DNA of 9,452 bases from a virus (lineage: Duplodnaviria; Heunggongvirae; Uroviricota; Caudoviricetes): IMG/VR virus record IMGVR_UViG_2711768048_000004; one strand, 5' to 3'. Both the position numbers and the translations under genes were made by a program. Under the pieces are notes generated by a model, which was not told the DNA's origin, made no database searches, and saw nothing but the letters and a program-made list of their open reading frames with translations. Shown here in pieces: positions 1,065 to 9,452 of this stretch (the stretch's first letter is position 1; every line of letters starts with the position of its first letter).

Positions 1065-1325
1065 TTATAGTTGAATAAGCCACTCGATATCTGGTGCTAC
1101 GGAAGTGTCCACACGGTTTAGCAGCACCCGATACTTTTTTCAGGCTTCCAGCAACGATCTTTCTTCCTCCGTTGCGATTTCCAGATCTACAGCATCCTGC
1201 AGTGGCGCAATATACTCACTGAATTCCTGGATGTAGAACTGTGTGGTGACGGTCTTCCAGCCATTCGGCTCCTGCTGTATTGAAGCATACCAGGCTATTT
1301 CAATATCGCTATGCTGCGGCAGCAT
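1065..1325 (-). pseudogene. tfaX: Tail fibre assembly protein (lambda Tfa-like) C-terminal remnant with an in-frame TGA
   Basis: The 61 aa ORF (1140-1325) ends ...EYIAPLQDAVDLEIATEEERSLLEA, matching the lambda Tfa C-terminal region. Past the TGA at 1140-1142 the same frame continues KKYRVLLNRVDTSVAPDIEW to a TAA at 1065-1067; in lambda Tfa the corresponding residue is Trp (SLLEAWKKYRVLLNRVDTS). Confidence 0.6.
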
Positions 1326-2102: not shown

Positions 2103-2636
2103 TTACTCCCTGACAGGGTTCGTAGGCCACTCAATATCAGGTGCAGTTGATGTATCAACACGGTTCAGCAACCCTTCCGGCTTATTAGCAGAATATGCTG
2201 GTGACGTATGAATCGTCACGCTGGCATTACTGGTATAATCCCATTGAATATTTACACCAGTCGCATAATTTCCGATTGCAACGTAAATATCGTAAGTATC
2301 ACCAGATGTATTGACCCAGGCAAAATTTGTAAACCCTGTCGATGTGCGCTGCCATAAAGCACCAGTAATCCCCTTCGGATTACCATTACCTGCACGCAAA
2401 ACAAGTTCAGATATACCTGCCTGTTGAGGTGACCCCACGTTAAATCCCGCGCCACCAATCAACGTAATTGAAACAACAGAACTCGCCTGTGGCATGGTTA
2501 CCGTTGCTAATTTGAACCAACCAGCACCACCGCTGAATGACATTGTTGTTGAGTTAAGCGTACCAATATCTTTCGGCGTCAGTGTTATATCCGCTGAAAG
2601 CGCCTTACCATTCACCTTACGGGCAGAAGGCATCAT
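2103..2636 (-). CDS. Phage tail fibre / tail-fibre-assembly family remnant (tfaD-like) with a lambda-Tfa-type C-terminus
   Basis: The N-terminal part (VNGKALSADITLTPKDIG, glycine-rich repeats GGAGWF, IGGAGFNVG) looks like a tail fibre or adhesin. The C-terminus (LLNRVDTSTAPDIEWPTNPVRE) matches the lambda Tfa C-terminus. The DNA at 2128-2175 is roughly 75-80 percent identical by eye to 1081-1125. Confidence 0.5.
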   Translation of the reverse strand: MMPSARKVNGKALSADITLTPKDIGTLNSTTMSFSGGAGWFKLATVTMPQASSVVSITLIGGAGFNVGSPQQAGISELVLRAGNGNPKGITGALWQRTSTGFTNFAWVNTSGDTYDIYVAIGNYATGVNIQWDYTSNASVTIHTSPAYSANKPEGLLNRVDTSTAPDIEWPTNPVRE

Positions 2637-2732
2637 TAACGGATAACGCCAGCGTCGCGGGTGCCTCTCCGGCAGTCAGGCTGTCACCGGACACCGCATC
2701 CGTCAGGCGGCTGATCCCAAGCTGGCCTGCAA

Positions 2733-2765
2733 GCGCACAAAAGAAAACCCGCGCATAGGCGGGTT
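2733..2765 (-). terminator. Rho-independent terminator on the minus strand
   Basis: Stem aaacccgc (2745-2752) / gcgggtt (2759-2765) with a 6-nt loop; on the minus strand it is followed by TTTTCTTTTGTG. Confidence 0.45.
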
Positions 2766-2791
2766 CAAGCATAAGCGGCTCATTAAAGGCC

Positions 2792-2959
2792 ATGCTGGCA
2801 ATATGCGGGAGATTTCCTAACCAAATGATTGAACAAATTAACATCGCTCTTGAGCAAAAAGGGTCCGGGAATTTCTCAGCCTGGGTCATTGAAGCCTGCC
2901 GTCGGAGGCTAACGTCAGAAAAGAGAGCATATACATCAATTAAAAGTGATGAAGAATGA
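2792..2959 (+). CDS. Small hypothetical protein, possibly ylcI-like (44-55 aa), with a ribbon-helix-helix-like motif
   Basis: Reading from the ATG at 2825 gives MIEQINIALEQKGSGNFSAWVIEACRRRLTSEKRAYTSIKSDEE, stop at 2957-2959; an in-frame ATG at 2792 is an alternative start. The RBS is weak and the ORF is below the 60 aa track cutoff. The assignment is from memory of a DLP12 small ORF in this position. Confidence 0.4.
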   Translation: MLAICGRFPNQMIEQINIALEQKGSGNFSAWVIEACRRRLTSEKRAYTSIKSDEE

Positions 2960-3123
2960 ACATCCCGCGTTCTTCCCTCCGAACAGGACGATATTGTAAA
3001 TTCACTTAATTACGAGGGCATTGCAGTAATTGAGTTGCAGTTTTACCACTTTCCTGACAGTGACAGACTGCGTGTTGGCTCTGTCACAGGTTAAGTAGTT
3101 TGAATGATTAGCAGTTATGGTGA

Positions 3124-3330
3124 TCAGTCAACCACCAGGGAATAATCCTTCATATTATTATCGTGCTTCACCAACGCTGCCTCAATTGCCCTGAATGCTT
3201 CCAGAGACACCTTATGTTCTATACATGCAATTACAACATCAGGGTAACTCATAGAAATGGTGCTATTAAGCATATTTTTTACACGAATCAGATCCACGGA
3301 GGGATCATCAGCAGATTGTTCTTTATTCAT
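3124..3330 (-). CDS. ybcW: Small uncharacterised prophage protein (ybcW-like, 68 aa)
   Basis: A 68 aa ORF with an ATG start and clean composition, sitting in the DLP12-like position divergent from the ybcV-like gene. Confidence 0.65.
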
Positions 3331-3615
3331 TTTGTCGCTCCATGCGCTTGCTCTTCATCTAGCGGTTAAAATATTACTTCAAATCTTTCTGTATGAAGGT
3401 TTGAGCACGTTGGCCTTACATACATCTGTCGGTTGTATTTCCCTCCAGAATGCCAGCAGGACCGCACTTTGTTACGCAACCAATACTATTAATTGAAAAC
3501 ATTCCTAATATTTGACATAAATCATCAACAAAACACAAAGAGGTCAGACCAGATTGAAGCGATAAAAACGATAATGCAAACTACGCGCCCTCGTATCACA
3601 TGGAAGGTTTTACCA

Positions 3616-4026
3616 ATGGCTCAGGTTGCCATTTTTAAAGAAATATTCGATCAAGTGCGAAAAGATTTAAACTGTGAATTGTTTTATTCTGAACTAAAAC
3701 GTCACAATGTCTCACATTATATTTACTATCTAGCCACAGATAATATTCACATTGTGTTAGAAAACGATAACACCGTGTTAATAAAAGGACTTAAAAAGGT
3801 TGTAAATGTTAAATTCTCAAGAAATACGCATCTTATAGAAACGTCCTATGATAGGTTGAAATCAAGAGAAATCACATTTCAGCAATACAGGGAAAATCTT
3901 GCTAAAGCAGGAGTTTTCCGATGGATTACAAATATCCACGAACATAAAAGATATTACTATACCTTTGATAATTCATTACTATTTACTGAGAGCATTCAGA
4001 ACACTACACAAATCTTTCCACGCTAA
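3616..4026 (+). CDS. ybcV: DUF1398-family protein (YbcV/YdfO-like), 136 aa
   Basis: The C-terminal region ([43 protein letters not shown]) matches the YdfO/YbcV family as recalled. The ATG at 3616 has a GGAAGG RBS 7 nt upstream. Alternative starts are the ATG at 3574 and the TTG at 3493 used by the ORF track. Confidence 0.7.
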
Positions 4027-4316
4027 ATCATAACGTCCGGTTTCTTCCGTGTCAGCACCGGGGTGTTGGCATAATACAATACATGTACGCGCTAAACCCT
4101 GTGTGCATCGTTTTTAATTATTCCCGGACACTCCCGCAGAGAAGTTCCCCGTCAGGGCTGTGGACATAGTTAATCCGGGAATACAATGACGATTCATCGC
4201 ACCTGGCATACATTAATAAATATTAACAATATGAAATTTCAACTCATTGTTTAGGGTTTGTTTAATTTTCTACACATACGATTCTGCGAACTTCAAAAAG
4301 CATCGGGAATAACACC

Positions 4317-4610
4317 ATGAAAAAAATGCTACTCGCTACTGCGCTGGCCCTGCTTATTACAGGATGTGCTCAACAGACATTTACTGTTCAAAACAAACAG
4401 ACAGCAGTAGCACCAAAGGAAACCATCACCCATCATTTCTTCGTTTCTGGAATTGGGCAGAAGAAAACTGTCGATGCAGCTAAAATTTGTGGCGGCGCAG
4501 AAAATGTTGTTAAAACAGAAACCCAGCAAACATTCGTAAATGGATTGCTCGGTTTTATTACTTTAGGCATTTATACTCCGCTGGAAGCGCGTGTGTATTG
4601 CTCAAAATAA
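4317..4610 (+). CDS. bor: Bor outer-membrane lipoprotein (serum-resistance protein of lambdoid phages)
   Basis: The 97 aa product is a near match to lambda Bor as recalled. It has a lipoprotein signal peptide with lipobox LITGC and is transcribed opposite to the lysis genes, as in lambda. Confidence 0.9.
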   Translation: MKKMLLATALALLITGCAQQTFTVQNKQTAVAPKETITHHFFVSGIGQKKTVDAAKICGGAENVVKTETQQTFVNGLLGFITLGIYTPLEARVYCSK

Positions 4611-4641
4611 TTGCATGAGTTGCCCATCGATATGGTCAGCT

Positions 4642-5103
4642 CTATCTGCACTGCTCATTAATATACTTCTGGGTTCCTTCCAGTTGTTTTTGCATAGTGA
4701 TCAGCCTCTCTCTGAGGGTGAAATAATCCCGTTCAGCGGTGTCTGCCAGTCGGGGGGAGGCTGCATTATCCACGCCGGAGGCCGTGGTGGCTTCACGCAC
4801 TGACTGACAGACTGCTTTGATGTGCAACCGACGACGACCAGCGGCAACATCATCACGCAGAGCATCATTTTCAGCTTTCGCATCAGCTAACTCCTTCGTG
4901 TATTTTGCATCGAGCGCAGCAACATCACGCTGACGCATCTGCATGTCAGTAATTGCCGCGTTCGCTAGCTTCAGTTCTCTGGCATTTTTGTCGCGCTGGA
5001 CTTTGTAGGCGATTGCGTTATCACGGTAATGATTGACCGCCCATGACAGGCTGACGATGATGCAGATAATCAGAGCGGATATAATCGCGGTTACTCTGCT
5101 CAC
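4642..5103 (-). CDS. Rz: Rz i-spanin (inner-membrane spanin subunit)
   Basis: Near-identical to lambda Rz as recalled ([10 protein letters not shown]...YINEQCR). The likely start is the GTG at 5103-5101, overlapping the endolysin stop (GTGA); the track start at 5115 is another upstream GTG. Confidence 0.9.
4701..4883 (-). CDS. Rz1: Rz1 o-spanin lipoprotein, embedded in the +1 frame of Rz
   Basis: The 60 aa product has a signal peptide with lipobox VVVGC and a proline-rich segment ([15 protein letters not shown]), near-identical to lambda Rz1. AGGAG RBS 7 nt upstream of the ATG. Confidence 0.85.
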
Positions 5104-5597
5104 TGTTGCCCCCACAAACAGACTTCACGCTCAATCTCACGACGAGTCATCAGGCCTTTCCATTGCTTACCGCCAGCGTATGTCCAGCGACGCAGCTGAT
5201 CACATGCGCCTTTGATATCGCCCTGGTTTATTTTGCGAAGAAGCGTCGATGTTCTAAAATTGCCAGCACCCACGTTGTAAACGAATGAGTAAAGAGCGCC
5301 GCGCGTTGTTTCCGGTATATCGACTTTGATATACGGGTTAATTTGTCTGGCGACAGTGGCAAGGTCTTTATTCAAGAGTGCTTTGCATTCTGCTTTGGTA
5401 TACGTTTTACCGAGCATGATGTCTTTTCCGGTGTGTCCGTGACATACAGTCCATACACCAACAATATCTTTGTATGGTATGTAGCTGACACCTTCCAGAC
5501 CATCGTTACCACTTGGGCCAGTGATTAACACTGATGCTATAGCAATTGCTCCGCCACCAATAGCAGCAGCAACGGCTTTTCGTAATGATGGAGGCAT
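5100..5597 (-). CDS. R: SAR endolysin (phage 21 R-type lysozyme with N-terminal signal-anchor-release domain)
   Basis: 165 aa with an N-terminal Gly/Ala-rich weakly hydrophobic segment ([20 protein letters not shown]) and the T4-lysozyme-like catalytic spacing E-x8-D-x5-T ([16 protein letters not shown]). The start overlaps the holin stop (TAATG). Confidence 0.9.
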
Positions 5598-5812
5598 TAT
5601 TCACCTCTCGCAGCCTTGCGCTTATCTTCTTTAATCTTGAAATAAAGGTTTGTCAGGTACGTCAGCAGGCCAAATACCAGGCTACCCAGCACACCTATTG
5701 CTGCCCACTGTGAGGGAGTGACTTTATCTAGCAGCTGTAAAAACCAGTACCCGGCACTACCTGCTGAGGTGCCATAGGCGACACCCGTTGTTAACTTATC
5801 CATGGATTTCAT
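5597..5812 (-). CDS. S: Pinholin (phage 21 S-type, class II holin) with a dual-start motif
   Basis: 71 aa beginning MKSMDK (Met1 and Met4 give antiholin and holin forms), with two TMDs including a Gly/Ala/Ser-rich first TMD. Strong RBS GAGGTGG upstream. Confidence 0.9.
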
Positions 5813-5923
5813 AACCCCACCTCGCAGACAAAGCGGGTGTAAATTGAGGGAATACTACGAAACGTAACAGACTCGGAGTCAGTGAATAACTCAGGTATTG
5901 GGTTATCAGCTAATATCGAGACT

Positions 5924-5957
5924 CAAAAAATGGAAAAACCCGCTCGACGGCGGGTTT
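5924..5957 (-). terminator. Strong rho-independent terminator on the minus strand, upstream of the holin
   Basis: Perfect 8-bp stem aaacccgc (5936-5943) / gcgggttt (5950-5957) with a 6-nt loop; the minus-strand transcript continues TTTTTCCATTTTTT. Confidence 0.5.
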
Positions 5958-6384
5958 AAGCTGTGTGACGAAGTAACCACTCTTAACAGCATAACCAATT
6001 TTTTACGTACGTAAACCACTAAATGATATTTGAGAGAATGCTACCGAGTATTGAAAACACCACTACAAATACATAAGCAAATCTCAACAAATAACCAAAA
6101 AATAATTTCCAGTGTTATTTTTAGCCGGTTTAAATTGAACCTTCAAATTATAGAGCACTTATAAATAACAGCCGTTAATATAAATTGGCTAATAGATTTA
6201 TTTTTATTCAGCCAAGAGCCATGAATAGGATTCGATAGAAAAAAGTTCAGATAAAAATAGAGATCTACTTCACAAATCAAACGAGAAACCAAAACTTACA
6301 TCTTGAAATAATCACATTGATTAGATGAATATTTATCGCGCAGTGACATCATTTTTTAATAATAGTTCAAAAAAAGGGCTCACG

Positions 6385-7482
6385 ATGAAAAAATTAACAG
6401 TGGCAATTTCTGCTGTAGCTGCATCAGTACTGATGGCGATGTCTGCTCAGGCAGCTGAAATTTATAATAAAGACAGTAACAAGCTGGATCTGTACGGGAA
6501 AGTTAATGCTAAGCACTACTTCTCCTCTAATGATGCAGATGATGGTGATACTACTTATGCCCGTCTTGGCTTCAAAGGTGAAACCCAAATCAACGATCAA
6601 CTGACTGGTTTCGGTCAGTGGGAATATGAATTCAAAGGCAACCGCGCTGAATCTCAAGGTTCCTCCAAAGATAAAACCCGTCTTGCCTTCGCTGGCCTGA
6701 AATTCGGTGACTACGGCTCCATCGATTACGGCCGTAACTACGGTGTAGCATACGACATCGGTGCGTGGACTGACGTCCTGCCAGAATTCGGTGGTGACAC
6801 TTGGACTCAAACCGACGTGTTCATGACTCAACGTGCAACTGGTGTTGCAACCTATCGTAACAACGACTTCTTTGGTCTGGTTGATGGTCTGAACTTTGCT
6901 GCTCAGTACCAAGGCAAAAACGATCGTAGCGATTTCGATAACTACACTGAAGGTAACGGTGATGGCTTCGGTTTCTCTGCTACCTATGAATACGAAGGAT
7001 TCGGTATCGGTGCAACTTATGCGAAATCTGATCGTACCGACACTCAAGTTAATGCAGGGAAAGTTCTTCCTGAAGTATTTGCTTCCGGTAAAAATGCAGA
7101 AGTTTGGGCCGCAGGTCTGAAATATGACGCTAACAACATTTACCTGGCCACTACCTATTCTGAAACCCAGAATATGACTGTATTTGCTGATCACTTCGTT
7201 GCTAATAAAGCCCAAAACTTCGAAGCTGTTGCACAATATCAGTTCGATTTCGGTCTGCGTCCGTCCGTTGCTTACCTGCAATCTAAAGGTAAGGATCTTG
7301 GAGTATGGGGCGATCAGGACTTAGTCAAATATGTTGATGTAGGTGCAACCTATTACTTCAACAAAAATATGTCTACTTTCGTTGATTACAAAATCAACCT
7401 GCTTGACAAAAATGACTTCACTAAAGCACTCGGTGTAAGCACTGATGACATCGTTGCTGTAGGTCTGGTTTACCAGTTCTAA
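6385..7482 (+). CDS. nmpC: OmpC-family general porin (NmpC / Lc / OmpD-like), phage-borne
   Basis: 365 aa with a classic Sec signal peptide ([23 protein letters not shown], cleavage after AQA), porin hallmarks ([15 protein letters not shown] start of mature protein, aromatic-rich beta strands, C-terminal ...VGLVYQF). It sits between Q and the holin on the opposite strand, as in DLP12 and PA-2. Confidence 0.9.
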
Positions 7483-7490
7483 TCTGATTA

Positions 7491-7532
7491 CGAAAAAGAT
7501 ATGTTGCGGGAGGCGTTGCCTCCCCAACATAT
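7491..7532 (-). terminator. Rho-independent terminator on the minus strand, about 140-180 nt downstream of Q (tR'-like candidate)
   Basis: Long stem atatgttgcgggaggc (7499-7514) / gcctccccaacatat (7518-7532) with a 3-nt loop and one bulge; on the minus strand it is followed by CTTTTTCG. Confidence 0.45.
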
Positions 7533-7620
7533 AAGTGGCTCCCTCAAGCCACTTCCTTTAGAAGCACAACCTTGCTTCTAACTATATAAACCTTCTGTTA
7601 TATATTACCCTTTATTTTTG

Positions 7621-7654
7621 GGGGCGTCTCAACGCCCCATTTTTAATAATTTTT
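7621..7654 (+). terminator. Rho-independent terminator on the plus strand, downstream of the porin gene
   Basis: Stem ggggcg (7621-7626) / cgcccc (7633-7638) with a 6-nt loop, followed by ATTTTTAATAATTTTT. Confidence 0.5.
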
Positions 7655-7671
7655 AGTAAACAATTGGCATA

Positions 7672-8055
7672 TTAATTAGAGTTATTAACAACGATATCCA
7701 TCTCTAACCGGATATCTAATGCCATTAACATCCCTTCAATTATGCCCTCAGCCTTCTGTAACCTTTTCCCGATATAACCATCAGAGCAGCAATGCTTACC
7801 TGCCAGTGACATGAATGTCATACCGACTACATAATAATCTACTAATAAATCGTGCAAATCGCTGTTGTTCTTTTTCAGACGGGCCATGCACCCGCAAATG
7901 ATCATCGCGTCATCGTCACAACATTGCGGGCGAGATTTTACTTTTGAAGTAATTAATCCCTTAAAACCGGCGGCAATGGACGACCAGGTCACATCTTCAT
8001 GATTATTAGCCGCCCACGCTCCCCAACGCTCAAGAACCATCTGAATATCACGCAT
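7672..8055 (-). CDS. quuD: Late-gene antiterminator Q (quuD-like)
   Basis: 127 aa from the ATG at 8055 (GGAG RBS 8 nt upstream), with a cysteine-rich putative zinc-binding core ([13 protein letters not shown] ... HCCSDGY) typical of Q proteins. It is positioned upstream of the lysis genes. Confidence 0.85.
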
Positions 8056-8140
8056 CAACTTACTCCACAAAAATCAGACCAGAACGCCAATTACAAGCAA
8101 AAATCAACAAAACAGTATTAGTTGATTGTTATCTCTGACT

Positions 8141-8281
8141 TCATACTCCTGCTCCTGTCAGGGTTTTGGCGTAATTCTTCAGTATTCGGTAATCGGTCAA
8201 AACAGAACCGGGGAAACGATATAAGCGCAGACGCCCCCAGCGGTGGCGAAGAAGTTCTGCCATATTAAACTCAAACATCAT
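8141..8281 (-). CDS. ylcG: Small nin-region protein (ylcG-like, 46 aa)
   Basis: Manual translation gives [46 protein letters not shown]. Its start overlaps the rusA stop (ATGA) and the stop is at 8141-8143. It is below the ORF track size cutoff. Confidence 0.6.
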
Positions 8282-8640
8282 TCATTCCCCATTTCGGTGA
8301 TGGTCAGTTCCAGCCTCCCACCTTTGGTAACAGGCATCTTCACAACGCGGTAATCAACGACCTGAGCATCATCCAGCCAGAAACCTGCTTTAGTGAGTGC
8401 GTCAAAAGCGGCTTTTTGCAGATTATCCAGGTCACGGCGACGGCGATCCGGCATGTGGCACTCAATGCGGATTTTCACAGGCATAGCCAGGCCGATATCC
8501 AGCATTGCGTTTTTAATGATTCGGGCGACGTTATCGCGGTATGCCTGCCCCTCTGCGCTGACGTGCGTGCGCCCGCGATTATGGCGGTAATAGCGATTAT
8601 TGCTCGGAGGCCAGGGTAATGTGATGCTGTAGGTATTCAC
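8278..8640 (-). CDS. rusA: RusA Holliday-junction resolvase
   Basis: 120 aa matching DLP12 RusA as recalled ([36 protein letters not shown]...). GTG start overlapping the ybcO stop (GTGA). Confidence 0.9.
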
Positions 8641-8927
8641 GCCTTAATAACCCCCTCTTTCAGCCAGATAACCTGTGTTCTCGCCATACCTTCCAGCGCG
8701 CATTCTTTTGCATATCCAGCGTCAACAAAATGCGTGCGGCGGTCGATTTCGTCGTGGCAGGCAGAACATGCAATGGTGGCAATCAGGTCTGGCGGTTTCG
8801 TACCGGTGCCGCACAATCCAGTCAGCCGGATATGTGCCAGTACAGACGTTTCAGGGTTGCCATTACATACGCCAGGGATTCTTACCTGGCATTCCCGACC
8901 ACGCGCTGCTTTTCTCAAATCAGCCAT
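8637..8927 (-). CDS. ybcO: DUF1364-family putative nuclease (ybcO-like)
   Basis: 96 aa from the ATG at 8927, with a GGAGGA RBS. Contains Cys/His clusters ([11 protein letters not shown] ... CSACHDEID) consistent with a metal-binding nuclease. Confidence 0.8.
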
Positions 8928-9090
8928 GACTCCTCCTTGCTGCCAGTCGCAACCATTTTTTATCAACCAGGCTGGCGGTATATCCGAGCAGTGTTGGTAT
9001 TTCGGATGGCTTCAGCTCAGGTTTACGCTTACGACGATTTGGTACTCTGTAGATGTGTCCGTTCATGACACGAATAAGCGGTGTAGCCAT
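8920..9090 (-). CDS. ninE: NinE protein
   Basis: 56 aa from the ATG at 9090 (MATPLIRVMNGHIYRVPNRRKRKPELK...), with an AGGAGG RBS. The start overlaps the ninB-like stop by 1 nt and the 3' end overlaps the ybcO start by 8 nt. Confidence 0.8.
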   Translation of the reverse strand: MATPLIRVMNGHIYRVPNRRKRKPELKPSEIPTLLGYTASLVDKKWLRLAARRSHG

Positions 9091-9452
9091 TACGCCTCCT
9101 GCTTGTCGCGCAGCAGCTGGAACTCGCAGCTCTGTGGAATAGTCAGGTGGCAACCAATATTCATCGCCCAGGCTTCAACCTTACACAGGAAGACATACAT
9201 CTCTCCGGTATCAAGATCGGAGGTATGGCGTAACGACTGGATAGTGGTGATATCACCGGTTACGACATCAACCAGGTCTTTGGTTTCATAACCGAGATAT
9301 GTGTGTTTGAGAGCATCTTTTACCCAAGCTGGAGTGGCGAACGTTTTACCCCTGCTGATGAGGTATTCACTGATTTCGCTGTACCACATGTGGCTGAGTG
9401 CATTCTGGGAAAGACTGCGTTTCTCACGCCACGGTTTAAGCACCATGCGAAA
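9090..9452 (-). CDS. ybcN: NinB / ybcN-like protein, partial (N-terminus lies beyond the window end)
   Basis: The ORF runs to the window edge with in-frame codons upstream of the first ATG at 9446. It sits in the conserved position before ninE. The family assignment is from context and weak recalled similarity. Confidence 0.6.
   Translation of the reverse strand, partial: FRMVLKPWREKRSLSQNALSHMWYSEISEYLISRGKTFATPAWVKDALKHTYLGYETKDLVDVVTGDITTIQSLRHTSDLDTGEMYVFLCKVEAWAMNIGCHLTIPQSCEFQLLRDKQEA

What the first reader, a model, noticed from the sequence alone, without database searches (positions are those of the whole stretch)
6385..7482. Intact OmpC-family porin carried antisense to the late operon between Q and the lysis genes
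A full-length porin with a signal peptide lies on the strand opposite to Q and the lysis genes. Late transcripts must either read antisense through it or start downstream of it. In E. coli K-12 the corresponding nmpC is recalled as disrupted by IS5, whereas here no insertion is seen. Phage-borne porins of this type (Lc of PA-2) are known to alter outer-membrane composition and phage susceptibility.
Basis: partly seen in the sequence, partly recalled or inferred. Interest (0 to 1): 0.45.

Follow-up and report, generated by a model that had tools for sequence, protein, structure and literature searches.

The report
Intact prophage porin gene nmpC
This is the well-known prophage-borne outer-membrane porin gene nmpC (the Lc porin of phage PA-2) in its uninterrupted form, sitting as a self-contained cassette between the phage Q gene and Q's own late promoter; it is real and functional but ordinary and already described.

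Summary
Window 6385-7482 (+) encodes a full-length 365-aa porin (Pfam Porin_1, E 5e-157). The protein is identical to NmpC of E. coli K-12 NCM3722 and 98.9% identical to Lc of phage PA-2. The IS5 that disrupts nmpC in MG1655 is absent, and its CTAA target (7421-7424) is unoccupied. The window is a DLP12-type prophage remnant, reverse-complemented relative to MG1655.

An 80-nt block at 6015-5930 (- strand) is homologous to the annotated pR'/qut/terminator of Stx phage 933W. That block lies between the porin's 5' end and essD. Nothing comparable follows quuD. The porin is therefore outside the late transcription unit.

The cassette is self-contained. It has its own promoter region, a structured 167-nt 3'UTR (published as the sRNA IpeX) and its own terminator. 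A separate terminator ends quuD transcripts at the porin's stop codon.

Published proteomics on NCM3722 show NmpC at about 2% of the proteome.

Verdict: already known, low interest.

One side observation: the Q-pR' gap holds varied, mostly antisense cargo in related phages, including defence-system candidates.

The parts
6385..7482 (+). nmpC coding sequence (365 codons plus stop), intact
   Evidence: The protein is identical to NCM3722 NmpC, with one synonymous change at 6432. It is 98.9% identical to PA-2 Lc.
6385..6453 (+). Signal peptide (23 aa, ...SAQA|AEIY)
   Evidence: The PA-2 record J02580 annotates a signal peptide of 69 nt at the homologous position. Solved mature OmpC chains align from residue 24.
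7421..7424 (+). Unoccupied IS5 target CTAA (site of the K-12 MG1655 IS5 insertion, codon 346)
   Evidence: Junction comparison with MG1655: CTAA-IS5-CTAA there, a single CTAA here.
6186..6384 (+). nmpC promoter region (PnmpC): AT-rich, with a CRP-like site near 6256-6277
   Evidence: Deleting -199 to -1 relative to the start codon abolishes PnmpC activity in K-12 (PMC11677980). The sequence is identical to K-12. The PA-2 record annotates a CRP site at the homologous position. GC content is 29-36%.
7483..7649 (+). Structured 3'UTR of nmpC, the published 167-nt IpeX sRNA region: four stem-loops, the last being the terminator
   Evidence: The fold gives -62.9 kcal/mol, z = -9.5. The region is almost invariant across phages whose porins differ by 10%. 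A review describes IpeX as 167 nt, from DLP12, processed from the porin transcript (PMC12197685).
7621..7645 (+). Intrinsic terminator of the nmpC/IpeX transcript (GGGGCGTCTCAACGCCCC followed by a T run)
7493..7532 (-). Intrinsic terminator for transcripts leaving quuD: a 15-bp stem followed by CUUUUU, ending at the porin stop codon
   Evidence: Fold of the - strand and the sequence itself. It is conserved in PA-2, mEp332, PhiR34_1 and PhiR68_2.
7672..8055 (-). quuD, a Q antiterminator of the Q21/Q933 family (PF06530)
   Evidence: It is 78-81% identical to Stx-phage Q and distantly related to Q21 structures.
5988..6015 (-). Predicted late promoter pR' (-35 TTTACG 6015..6010, 16-nt spacer, -10 TATGCT 5993..5988; predicted start near 5981)
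   Evidence: It is homologous to the annotated 933W pR'. The Sakai homologue fits the published dRNA-seq TSS through the 258-nt spacing to tR'. The core motif occurs only once in the window.
5967..5974 (-). Equivalent of the 933W 'qut' element, within the conserved initial transcribed region TAAGAGTGGTTACTTCGTCACA
   Evidence: Alignment to the 933W annotation.
5925..5957 (-). Terminator-like hairpin plus T run just downstream of pR' (candidate tR')
   Evidence: It is homologous to the first annotated 933W terminator.
5597..5812 (-). essD (phage 21-type holin), first gene of the late/lysis transcript
5100..5597 (-). rrrD endolysin
4642..5103 (-). rzpD spanin, with rzoD embedded at 4701-4883

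Best explanation
The feature is the intact nmpC gene of a DLP12-type lambdoid prophage, the E. coli counterpart of the Lc porin of phage PA-2. It is a self-contained lysogenic-conversion cassette of about 1.65 kb (7671 to 6017), inserted in reverse orientation between the end of the Q gene (quuD) and Q's target promoter pR'.

Shown here or published:
- The gene has its own promoter region, a signal peptide, all sequence hallmarks of a 16-strand general porin, a structured 167-nt 3'UTR and its own terminator.
- In K-12 NCM3722, whose promoter, coding sequence and 3'UTR are identical, NmpC is about 2% of the proteome, is induced by carbon limitation, and OmpC is more than 10-fold lower than in an IS5-disrupted strain.

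Inferred:
- The Q-dependent late promoter is the 933W-like pR' block at 6015-5930 on the - strand. Late transcripts therefore start about 170 nt upstream of essD and run away from the porin.
- Transcripts leaving quuD stop at a terminator abutting the porin stop codon. The porin is crossed antisense only by antiterminated early transcripts during lytic growth of complete phages.

Established knowledge, not tested here: the porin replaces host porins and alters phage susceptibility, and its 3'UTR (IpeX) represses OmpC/OmpF.
For: Identity of the gene:
- Full-length Porin_1 match, and OmpC structures matched over the whole mature protein.
- 98.9% identity to Lc, and 100% to the first 347 residues of the IS5-split NmpC.
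- The exact protein is on at least 1000 contigs under the names NmpC/Lc.
- One synonymous difference from NCM3722 across promoter, CDS and 3'UTR.
- IS5 is absent and its target is single-copy.

Expression:
- NCM3722 proteomics (PMC8144880) and PMC3045373.
- PnmpC mapped to within 199 nt upstream of the start codon (PMC11677980).

Late promoter:
- The conserved block at 6015-5930 (-) aligns with the annotated 933W pR', qut and terminator.
- In Sakai the same promoter sits 258 nt upstream of the second terminator, matching the published dRNA-seq/Term-seq spacing.
- The core motif occurs once per locus in 11 Q-bearing loci, and only at 5973-5985 in the window.
- Q type and block co-occur in nearly the same phage sets (401 and 363 records with near-identical organism breakdown).
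- Viable phages (mEp332, PhiR34_1, PA-2, 434B) have the same Q-porin-block-holin order.

Insulation: terminators on both strands in the 189-nt quuD-nmpC gap.
Against: - No transcription start site was mapped in this strain. The pR' assignment rests on homology and on a coordinate-offset inference for the Sakai data.
- The window's -10 (TATGCT) is weaker than the Stx-phage TATCAT, and the promoter falls below the scan's threshold.
- In Stx phages the mapped tR' is a second hairpin at +258, which the window lacks. How strongly the single hairpin at 5957-5936 terminates is therefore unknown.
One of them reports RpoE control, so other promoters may also feed the lysis genes.
- The IpeX identification rests on a review's description plus position and length. 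Rfam has no matching family.
Confidence: 0.85

Rival explanations
1. The late promoter lies immediately downstream of quuD, as in lambda, 21 and 82. Q-modified RNA polymerase would then read antisense through the whole porin gene before reaching essD.
For: This is the usual lambdoid geometry. In Stx phages with the related Q, the pR' block begins 44 nt after the Q match.
Against: The 189 nt after quuD are filled by the four hairpins of the porin 3'UTR and contain no copy of the pR' motif. The scan finds no promoter-like site on the - strand between 7671 and 6017. A - strand terminator sits at 7532-7493. The only 933W-like pR'/qut block is at 6015-5930.
Confidence: 0.05
2. The gene is intact in sequence but quiescent, that is, not expressed or not assembled. 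Quiescence has been reported for some E. coli porin genes such as ompN.
For: PMC3333887 cites a 1998 report of quiescent nmpC and ompN in E. coli B. The upstream region is AT-rich, which is typical of silenced horizontally acquired DNA.
Against: NCM3722 has the same promoter, coding sequence (one synonymous change) and 3'UTR. It makes NmpC at about 2% of the proteome, 200 times the level in an MG1655 derivative (PMC8144880). PnmpC is active enough in K-12 to drive the IS5 transposase (PMC11677980).
Confidence: 0.05
3. The lysis genes are driven mainly by a host-controlled promoter (for example RpoE-dependent) rather than by a Q-dependent pR'. The 933W-like block would then be a decayed relic.
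For: PMC7918800 cites Rueggeberg 2015 for RpoE control of the DLP12 lysis cassette, alongside Q and Hha. The window's -10 is weaker than in Stx phages.
Against: The block is 99-100% conserved in plaque-forming phages that carry this module (Kati, PhiR30_1, D2, 2G7b, PA-2), which must express late genes. The same review cites Q-type control of the cassette. This explanation is additive with the main one rather than exclusive.
Confidence: 0.05

Closest known systems
NmpC of E. coli K-12 cryptic prophage DLP12 (qsr')
   Same: Same locus, same neighbours (quuD, essD-rrrD-rzpD, borD, appY) and the same protein. The DNA is 99.97% identical to K-12 over 6.6 kb.
   Different: MG1655 has IS5 after codon 346 and the window does not, like K-12 NCM3722. 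The window also has a rare rearrangement elsewhere in the prophage remnant, at 2173-2812.
Lc porin ('protein 2') of lambdoid phage PA-2 (GenBank J02580)
   Same: Same length. Same flanking pR' block, 3'UTR and lysis genes. 361 of 365 residues are identical.
   Different: Four substitutions (R99H, Q149G, A151T, V154F). PA-2 is a viable phage, whereas the window is a defective remnant.
OmpD of Salmonella (chromosomal, yddG-ompD-smvA locus)
   Same: It is the closest non-phage relative found: 78% identity to the S. enterica arizonae porin at that locus. Several phage records label the phage porin 'OmpD'.
   Different: The genomic context differs: no Q, no holin and no IpeX-like 3'UTR near the chromosomal genes in other genera.
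OmpC, PhoE and OmpF of E. coli K-12
   Same: Same fold family and the same conserved constriction residues, PEFGGD loop 3 motif and C-terminal YQF.
   Different: 63%, 62% and 58% identity. The surface loops differ. The NCBIfam PhoE and OmpF equivalog cut-offs are not reached.
Stx-phage late region (Q933, pR', StxS RNA, tR', stx genes)
   Same: Related Q (78-81% identity) and a homologous pR'/qut/first-terminator block.
   Different: In Stx phages the cargo (tRNAs, stx) lies downstream of pR', is co-directional and is Q-dependent. Here the cargo lies upstream of pR', is antisense and has its own promoter.

Membership tests
General bacterial porins (Pfam PF00267 Porin_1; OmpC/OmpF/PhoE type) | Full-length match to the family profile | tested here: met
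   Profile positions 1-337 of 337, E 4.7e-157, 523 bits against a cut-off of 23.7.
General bacterial porins (Pfam PF00267 Porin_1; OmpC/OmpF/PhoE type) | Cleavable N-terminal signal peptide and a mature N-terminus AE(I/V)YNK | tested here: met
   The sequence reads [23 protein letters not shown]|AEIYNK. It aligns with the mature start of solved OmpC chains and with the PA-2 signal-peptide annotation.
General bacterial porins (Pfam PF00267 Porin_1; OmpC/OmpF/PhoE type) | Loop 3 PEFGGD motif, conserved basic constriction residues and a C-terminal aromatic residue (…YQF) | tested here: met
   P133-D138, K39, R60, R117, Y363, Q364 and F365 are invariant in the six-porin alignment. R99 is conserved in every sequence except PA-2 Lc, which has H at that position.
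General bacterial porins (Pfam PF00267 Porin_1; OmpC/OmpF/PhoE type) | Trimeric 16-strand beta-barrel that forms a diffusion pore | not testable with these tools
   Only sequence homology to solved OmpC/OmpK36/PhoE/OmpF structures was obtained (E 1e-137 to 1e-109). No structure was predicted and no conductance was measured.
NmpC/Lc phage-borne porin | Near-identity to the NmpC and Lc proteins | tested here: met
   98.9% to Lc. 100% to residues 1-347 of the IS5-split NmpC. Protein identical to NCM3722 NmpC.
NmpC/Lc phage-borne porin | Location in a lambdoid prophage between Q and the S-R-Rz lysis genes, on the opposite strand | tested here: met
NmpC/Lc phage-borne porin | 3'UTR that gives rise to the IpeX sRNA | tested here: inconclusive
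   The 3'UTR is identical to K-12 and PA-2, is 167 nt from stop codon to terminator, and is strongly structured. Only a review's description was available.
OmpC orthologue | Equivalence to chromosomal ompC in sequence and locus | tested here: not met
   It passes NCBIfam's OmpC subfamily cut-off (529.8 against 484). However, identity to K-12 OmpC is only 63% and the gene sits in a prophage, not at the ompC locus.
OmpD orthologue (Salmonella) | Chromosomal position between yddG and smvA | tested here: not met
   The 78%-identical Salmonella arizonae gene is flanked by yddG and smvA. The window gene is flanked by quuD and essD.
Moron (autonomous accessory cassette in a phage genome) | Own promoter, own terminator, atypical base composition and expression from the prophage | tested here: met
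   Promoter region from PMC11677980. Terminator at 7621-7645. Upstream region at 29-36% GC against about 50% for the neighbours. Expression in NCM3722.
Q-dependent late promoter pR' of the Q933/QuuD type | Sequence homology to a characterised pR'/qut/terminator | tested here: met
   Alignment with 933W annotated features 20666-20748, and with Sakai Sp5.
Q-dependent late promoter pR' of the Q933/QuuD type | Co-occurrence with the cognate Q type | tested here: met
   401 phage records carry the Q and 363 carry the block, with near-identical organism breakdown. 100 of 120 IMG/VR contigs with the motif have a PF06530 Q upstream on the same strand.
Q-dependent late promoter pR' of the Q933/QuuD type | Mapped transcription start and Q-dependent read-through | not testable with these tools
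   Only an inference is available: the published Sakai TSS-to-tR' spacing of 258 nt fits the homologous promoter.

The most novel reading that the evidence does not exclude
The porin may be one occupant of a dedicated accessory-gene slot between the Q gene and pR' in lambdoid phages with Q933/QuuD-type antiterminators. The slot is insulated from transcription and its cargo is mostly antisense. In a sample of 100 viral contigs, 76 have 0.6-2.4 kb inserted there. Those inserts fall into about 19 cassette types, nearly all antisense. They include a KAP NTPase (PADLOC candidate PDC-S20), PDC-M53A-like and HNH/PDC-M68A-like proteins, NdpA-like proteins and many unknowns. On this reading NmpC plus IpeX would act as a receptor-swap superinfection-exclusion module in a defence hotspot. 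In addition, the fully complementary 3'UTRs of quuD and nmpC might couple Q expression and porin expression.
Probability: 0.35. Interest if true: 0.45.

Novelty: already known. Interest (0 to 1): 0.15.

Why it matters
For the finding itself the significance is small. NmpC/Lc has been studied since the 1970s-80s, and intact alleles are common: at least about 760 of 5,426 complete E. coli genomes have an uninterrupted 3' end.

Its practical relevance is that strains with the intact gene have a different major-porin complement from MG1655. NmpC is about 2% of the proteome and OmpC is much lower. This affects permeability, phage receptors and comparisons between K-12 lineages.

The refinement that the cassette sits upstream of pR' explains how a highly expressed antisense gene can coexist with the late operon. 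It also points to a variable cargo slot that could be mined for defence genes.

Tried and rejected
- Primary papers on the DLP12 essD promoter and QuuD (PubMed 23378572, 25998262), DLP12 lysis genes (PMC3167917), IpeX (PMC1347279), quiescent nmpC (PMC107294), qsr' (PMC218982) and 933W (PMC93574) are not held. Direct promoter mapping could not be cited.
- I tried to recover the published essD TSS from the reporter primers of PMC7918800. The forward primer maps to 6457-6438 and the reverse primer has no exact match. The stated -121/+650 limits do not fit the amplicon, so this was uninformative.
- Rfam gave no IpeX or late-RNA family.
- The consensus promoter scan did not flag the window's pR' (8 of 12 matches), although it flagged the Sakai homologue.
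- Phage 1H12 has a related Q with an antisense lipocalin next to it, but no copy of the pR' motif within 3 mismatches, so it could not be placed in the scheme.
- Cargo proteins of SfIV, 569R4 and PhiR40_1 gave no Pfam or PADLOC hits.
- I considered and rejected IS5 remnants, a frameshift or truncation of the porin and a second pR' copy next to quuD.

Full report
**What is in the window**

The 9.45-kb window is a DLP12-type defective lambdoid prophage of E. coli, reverse-complemented relative to MG1655. Reading the - strand from the right end, it carries ybcN (partial), ninE, ybcO, rusA, ylcG and quuD (the Q antiterminator, 7672-8055). After a gap come essD (holin, 5597-5812), rrrD (endolysin), rzpD/rzoD (spanins) and the appY end. 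borD, ybcV and the porin are on the + strand.

Window 2813-9452 is 99.97% identical to K-12 NCM3722. Apart from IS5, it is equally close to MG1655. The Q-porin-holin stretch is 100% identical to many E. coli chromosomes. At least 80% of it is present in 2,359 of 5,426 complete genomes.

**Checking the observation**

From the ATG at 6385 the + strand encodes 365 residues with no interruption. The evidence that this is an intact porin:
- Pfam Porin_1 is matched end to end at E 4.7e-157.
- Solved OmpC, OmpK36, PhoE and OmpF chains align over residues 24-365 at E 1e-137 to 1e-109.
- In a six-porin alignment the AEIYNK mature N-terminus, the basic constriction residues, the PEFGGD loop 3 motif and the C-terminal YQF are all present.
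- The first 23 residues correspond to the signal peptide annotated in the PA-2 lc record.

Identity values, from closest to most distant:

| Comparison | Identity |
|---|---|
| PA-2 Lc | 98.9% (four substitutions) |
| NCM3722 NmpC | identical protein; one synonymous change at 6432 |
| IS5-split NmpC carried by laboratory phage 434B | 100% over residues 1-347 |
| K-12 OmpC / PhoE / OmpF | 63% / 62% / 58% |

The exact protein sequence is on at least 1000 public contigs, named 'putative outer membrane porin protein NmpC' or 'outer membrane porin protein LC'.

IS5 is absent from the window. MG1655 has CTAA-IS5-CTAA where the window has a single CTAA at 7421-7424.

**Which porin it is**

NCBIfam places the protein above the 'porin OmpC' subfamily cut-off but below the PhoE and OmpF equivalog cut-offs. 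Among species-representative genomes, only E. coli and E. albertii loci carry the Q gene and the porin's 3'UTR alongside the porin.

The next relatives (74-78% identity) are chromosomal porins of Citrobacter, Salmonella and Enterobacter, with no Q, no holin and no such 3'UTR within 2.5 kb. The Salmonella arizonae gene lies between yddG and smvA, which is the ompD locus. NmpC/Lc is therefore best described as a phage-borne member of the OmpD branch of the general porins.

**Where late transcription starts**

Comparison with relatives decides this.

QuuD belongs to the Q21/Q933 family (PF06530). It is 78-81% identical to the Q of Stx phages and distantly related to the solved Q21.

An 80-nt block on the - strand at 6015-5930 aligns with the sequence that immediately follows Q in Stx phages. 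Its elements are:
- -35 TTTACG, a 16-nt spacer and -10 TATGCT;
- the conserved TAAGAGTGGTTACTTCGTCACA;
- a GC-rich hairpin followed by a T run.

The 933W RefSeq record annotates the homologous bases as pR', qut and a terminator.

In strain Sakai the same promoter lies exactly 258 nt upstream of the end of the second terminator. This is the spacing between the dRNA-seq PR' start and the Term-seq tR' end reported by Sy et al. (PMC7547250). The absolute coordinates differ by a constant 142 nt, which I attribute to genome versions; this is an inference.

The core motif occurs once in each of 11 Q-bearing loci examined, and once in the window, at 5973-5985. The Q type and the block are found in nearly the same sets of phage records.

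By contrast, the 189 nt after quuD are fully occupied by the hairpins of the porin 3'UTR. They contain no promoter-like site on the - strand.

The same order (Q, porin, block, holin) is present in plaque-forming phages: PA-2, mEp332, PhiR34_1, PhiR68_2 and the 434B hybrid. The best-supported reading is that the late promoter lies between the porin and essD. The predicted start is near 5981, about 170 nt before the essD ATG. The porin is then outside the late transcription unit.

This rests on homology. No start site was mapped in this strain, and the primary DLP12 promoter papers could not be read.

**How the cassette is built**

The segment between the quuD stop (7672) and the pR' -35 (6015) behaves as an autonomous cassette.
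- Upstream of the porin is an AT-rich region (29-36% GC). It is identical to K-12, where deleting -199 to -1 removes PnmpC activity and where CRP, OmpR, IHF and MprA sites are described (PMC11677980).
- Downstream, the 167 nt from the stop codon to the terminator T run fold into four stem-loops (-62.9 kcal/mol, z = -9.5).
- This 3'UTR is almost invariant in phages whose porin proteins differ by 10%. It matches the description of IpeX: a 167-nt DLP12 RNA processed from the porin transcript that lowers OmpC (PMC12197685).
- On the - strand, the hairpin nearest the porin stop codon is a 15-bp stem followed by CUUUUU. This is a terminator for transcripts leaving quuD.

If both terminators work as predicted, the quuD and nmpC transcripts carry fully complementary 3'UTRs. 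In complete phages, N-antiterminated early transcripts would presumably still run into the porin antisense during lytic growth; this is an inference.

**Function**

The porin is not a silent gene. NCM3722 has the same promoter, coding sequence and 3'UTR. In that strain (PMC8144880, PMC3045373):
- NmpC is about 2% of the proteome, 200-fold above an MG1655 derivative;
- it is induced by carbon limitation, consistent with CRP control;
- OmpC is more than 10-fold lower than in the IS5-disrupted strain.

It is established knowledge that Lc/NmpC forms pores and that PA-2 lysogeny changes the porin complement and phage sensitivity. Neither point was tested here.

**Novelty**

Everything about the finding itself is known:
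- nmpC within the qsr'/DLP12 prophage and its IS5 disruption in K-12 (cited in PMC3333887);
- the Lc sequence of 1986;
- IpeX, and the expression of the intact allele.

About 760 of 5,426 complete genomes have the 3' end of this allele uninterrupted. About 300, mostly K-12 derivatives, show the split. The one refinement offered here is that the cassette lies upstream of pR', not inside the late operon. It follows from published annotations and is consistent with reports of a Q-controlled essD promoter. Interest is therefore low.

**Side observation**

In relatives with this Q family, the gap between Q and the pR' block is often filled.

From 120 IMG/VR contigs carrying the motif, 100 have the Q gene upstream:

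| Gap between Q stop and pR' block | Contigs |
|---|---|
| under 100 nt | 24 |
| 0.6-2.4 kb, porin cassette (always antisense; every copy not cut off by a locus end is intact) | 34 |
| 0.6-2.4 kb, one of about 18 other cassette types | 42 |

In the other cassette types the long ORFs are antisense in all but two. Representatives include:
- a KAP NTPase matching PADLOC candidate PDC-S20 at E 1e-177;
- PDC-M53A-like and HNH/PDC-M68A-like proteins;
- two NdpA-like (PF04245) proteins, each with a partner gene;
- an alpha/beta hydrolase;
- several proteins with no family match.

SfIV's insert at this position was already called a moron by its authors (PMC3851460). The sample is redundant and not random. 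No defence activity was tested.

Noticed in passing
window 6017-7671; loci L008, L016, L017, L098-L217: The gap between the Q gene and the pR' block is a variable cargo slot in phages with PF06530-type Q. Of 100 IMG/VR contigs, 76 carry 0.6-2.4 kb there, in about 19 cassette types that are nearly all antisense. Cargo includes a KAP NTPase (PADLOC PDC-S20, E 1e-177), PDC-M53A-like and HNH/PDC-M68A-like proteins, NdpA-like proteins, an alpha/beta hydrolase and several unknowns.
   Followed up: partly
window 7483-7671: quuD and nmpC converge, and their terminators sit at opposite ends of the gap: the + strand terminator at 7621-7645 and the - strand terminator at 7532-7493. The two mRNAs should therefore carry about 150 nt of fully complementary, highly structured 3'UTR. 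This could allow antisense coupling between Q and porin/IpeX expression.
   Followed up: no
window about 5961-5981 (J02580 1067-1087): The first 'CRP binding site' annotated in the 1986 PA-2 lc record falls on the conserved initial transcribed/qut region of pR' (TGGTTACTTCGTCACA on the - strand). It is about 400 nt upstream of the porin start and may have been misassigned.
   Followed up: partly
window 5813-5957 (- strand): Homology to Stx phages ends after the first hairpin. The second terminator, mapped as tR' at +258 in Sakai, has no counterpart, so only one hairpin separates pR' from essD. This may allow constitutive low-level expression of the lysis cassette, as reported for DLP12 in uninduced cells.
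   Followed up: no
window 7672-7680 versus L012 660-714: QuuD (127 aa) lacks about 18 C-terminal residues of Stx-phage Q. In 933W those codons overlap the pR' -35. The cassette junction therefore coincides with the end of Q homology on one side and with the -35 on the other.
   Followed up: partly
window 2173-2812: A rare rearrangement of the prophage remnant: 640 bp here replace 1,630 bp of K-12 (nohD, a terminase fragment, tfaD). This junction occurs in only 2 of 5,426 complete E. coli genomes, both chicken isolates (FDN-24 and FDN-9), which are also 100% matches elsewhere.
   Followed up: partly
window 1099-1302 (- strand): A near-threshold Rfam match to IS009, a candidate E. coli sRNA (110 bits against a gathering score of 117, E 3e-25), in the tfaX-appY interval.
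   Followed up: no
porin residues 99, 149, 151, 154 (window 6679-6846): The published PA-2 Lc differs from this protein at four positions. One is H for R99, an arginine present in all five other porins aligned. This may be a real variant or an error in the 1986 sequence.
   Followed up: no
L009 4073-5155 and IMG/VR loci: Two porin alleles circulate in this slot: 365 aa, and 360 aa at about 90% identity. They differ mainly in the region aligned to external loops, while the 3'UTR stays almost invariant. In the IMG/VR sample, 13 loci carry the 99-100% allele and 26 the 90-92% allele.
   Followed up: partly
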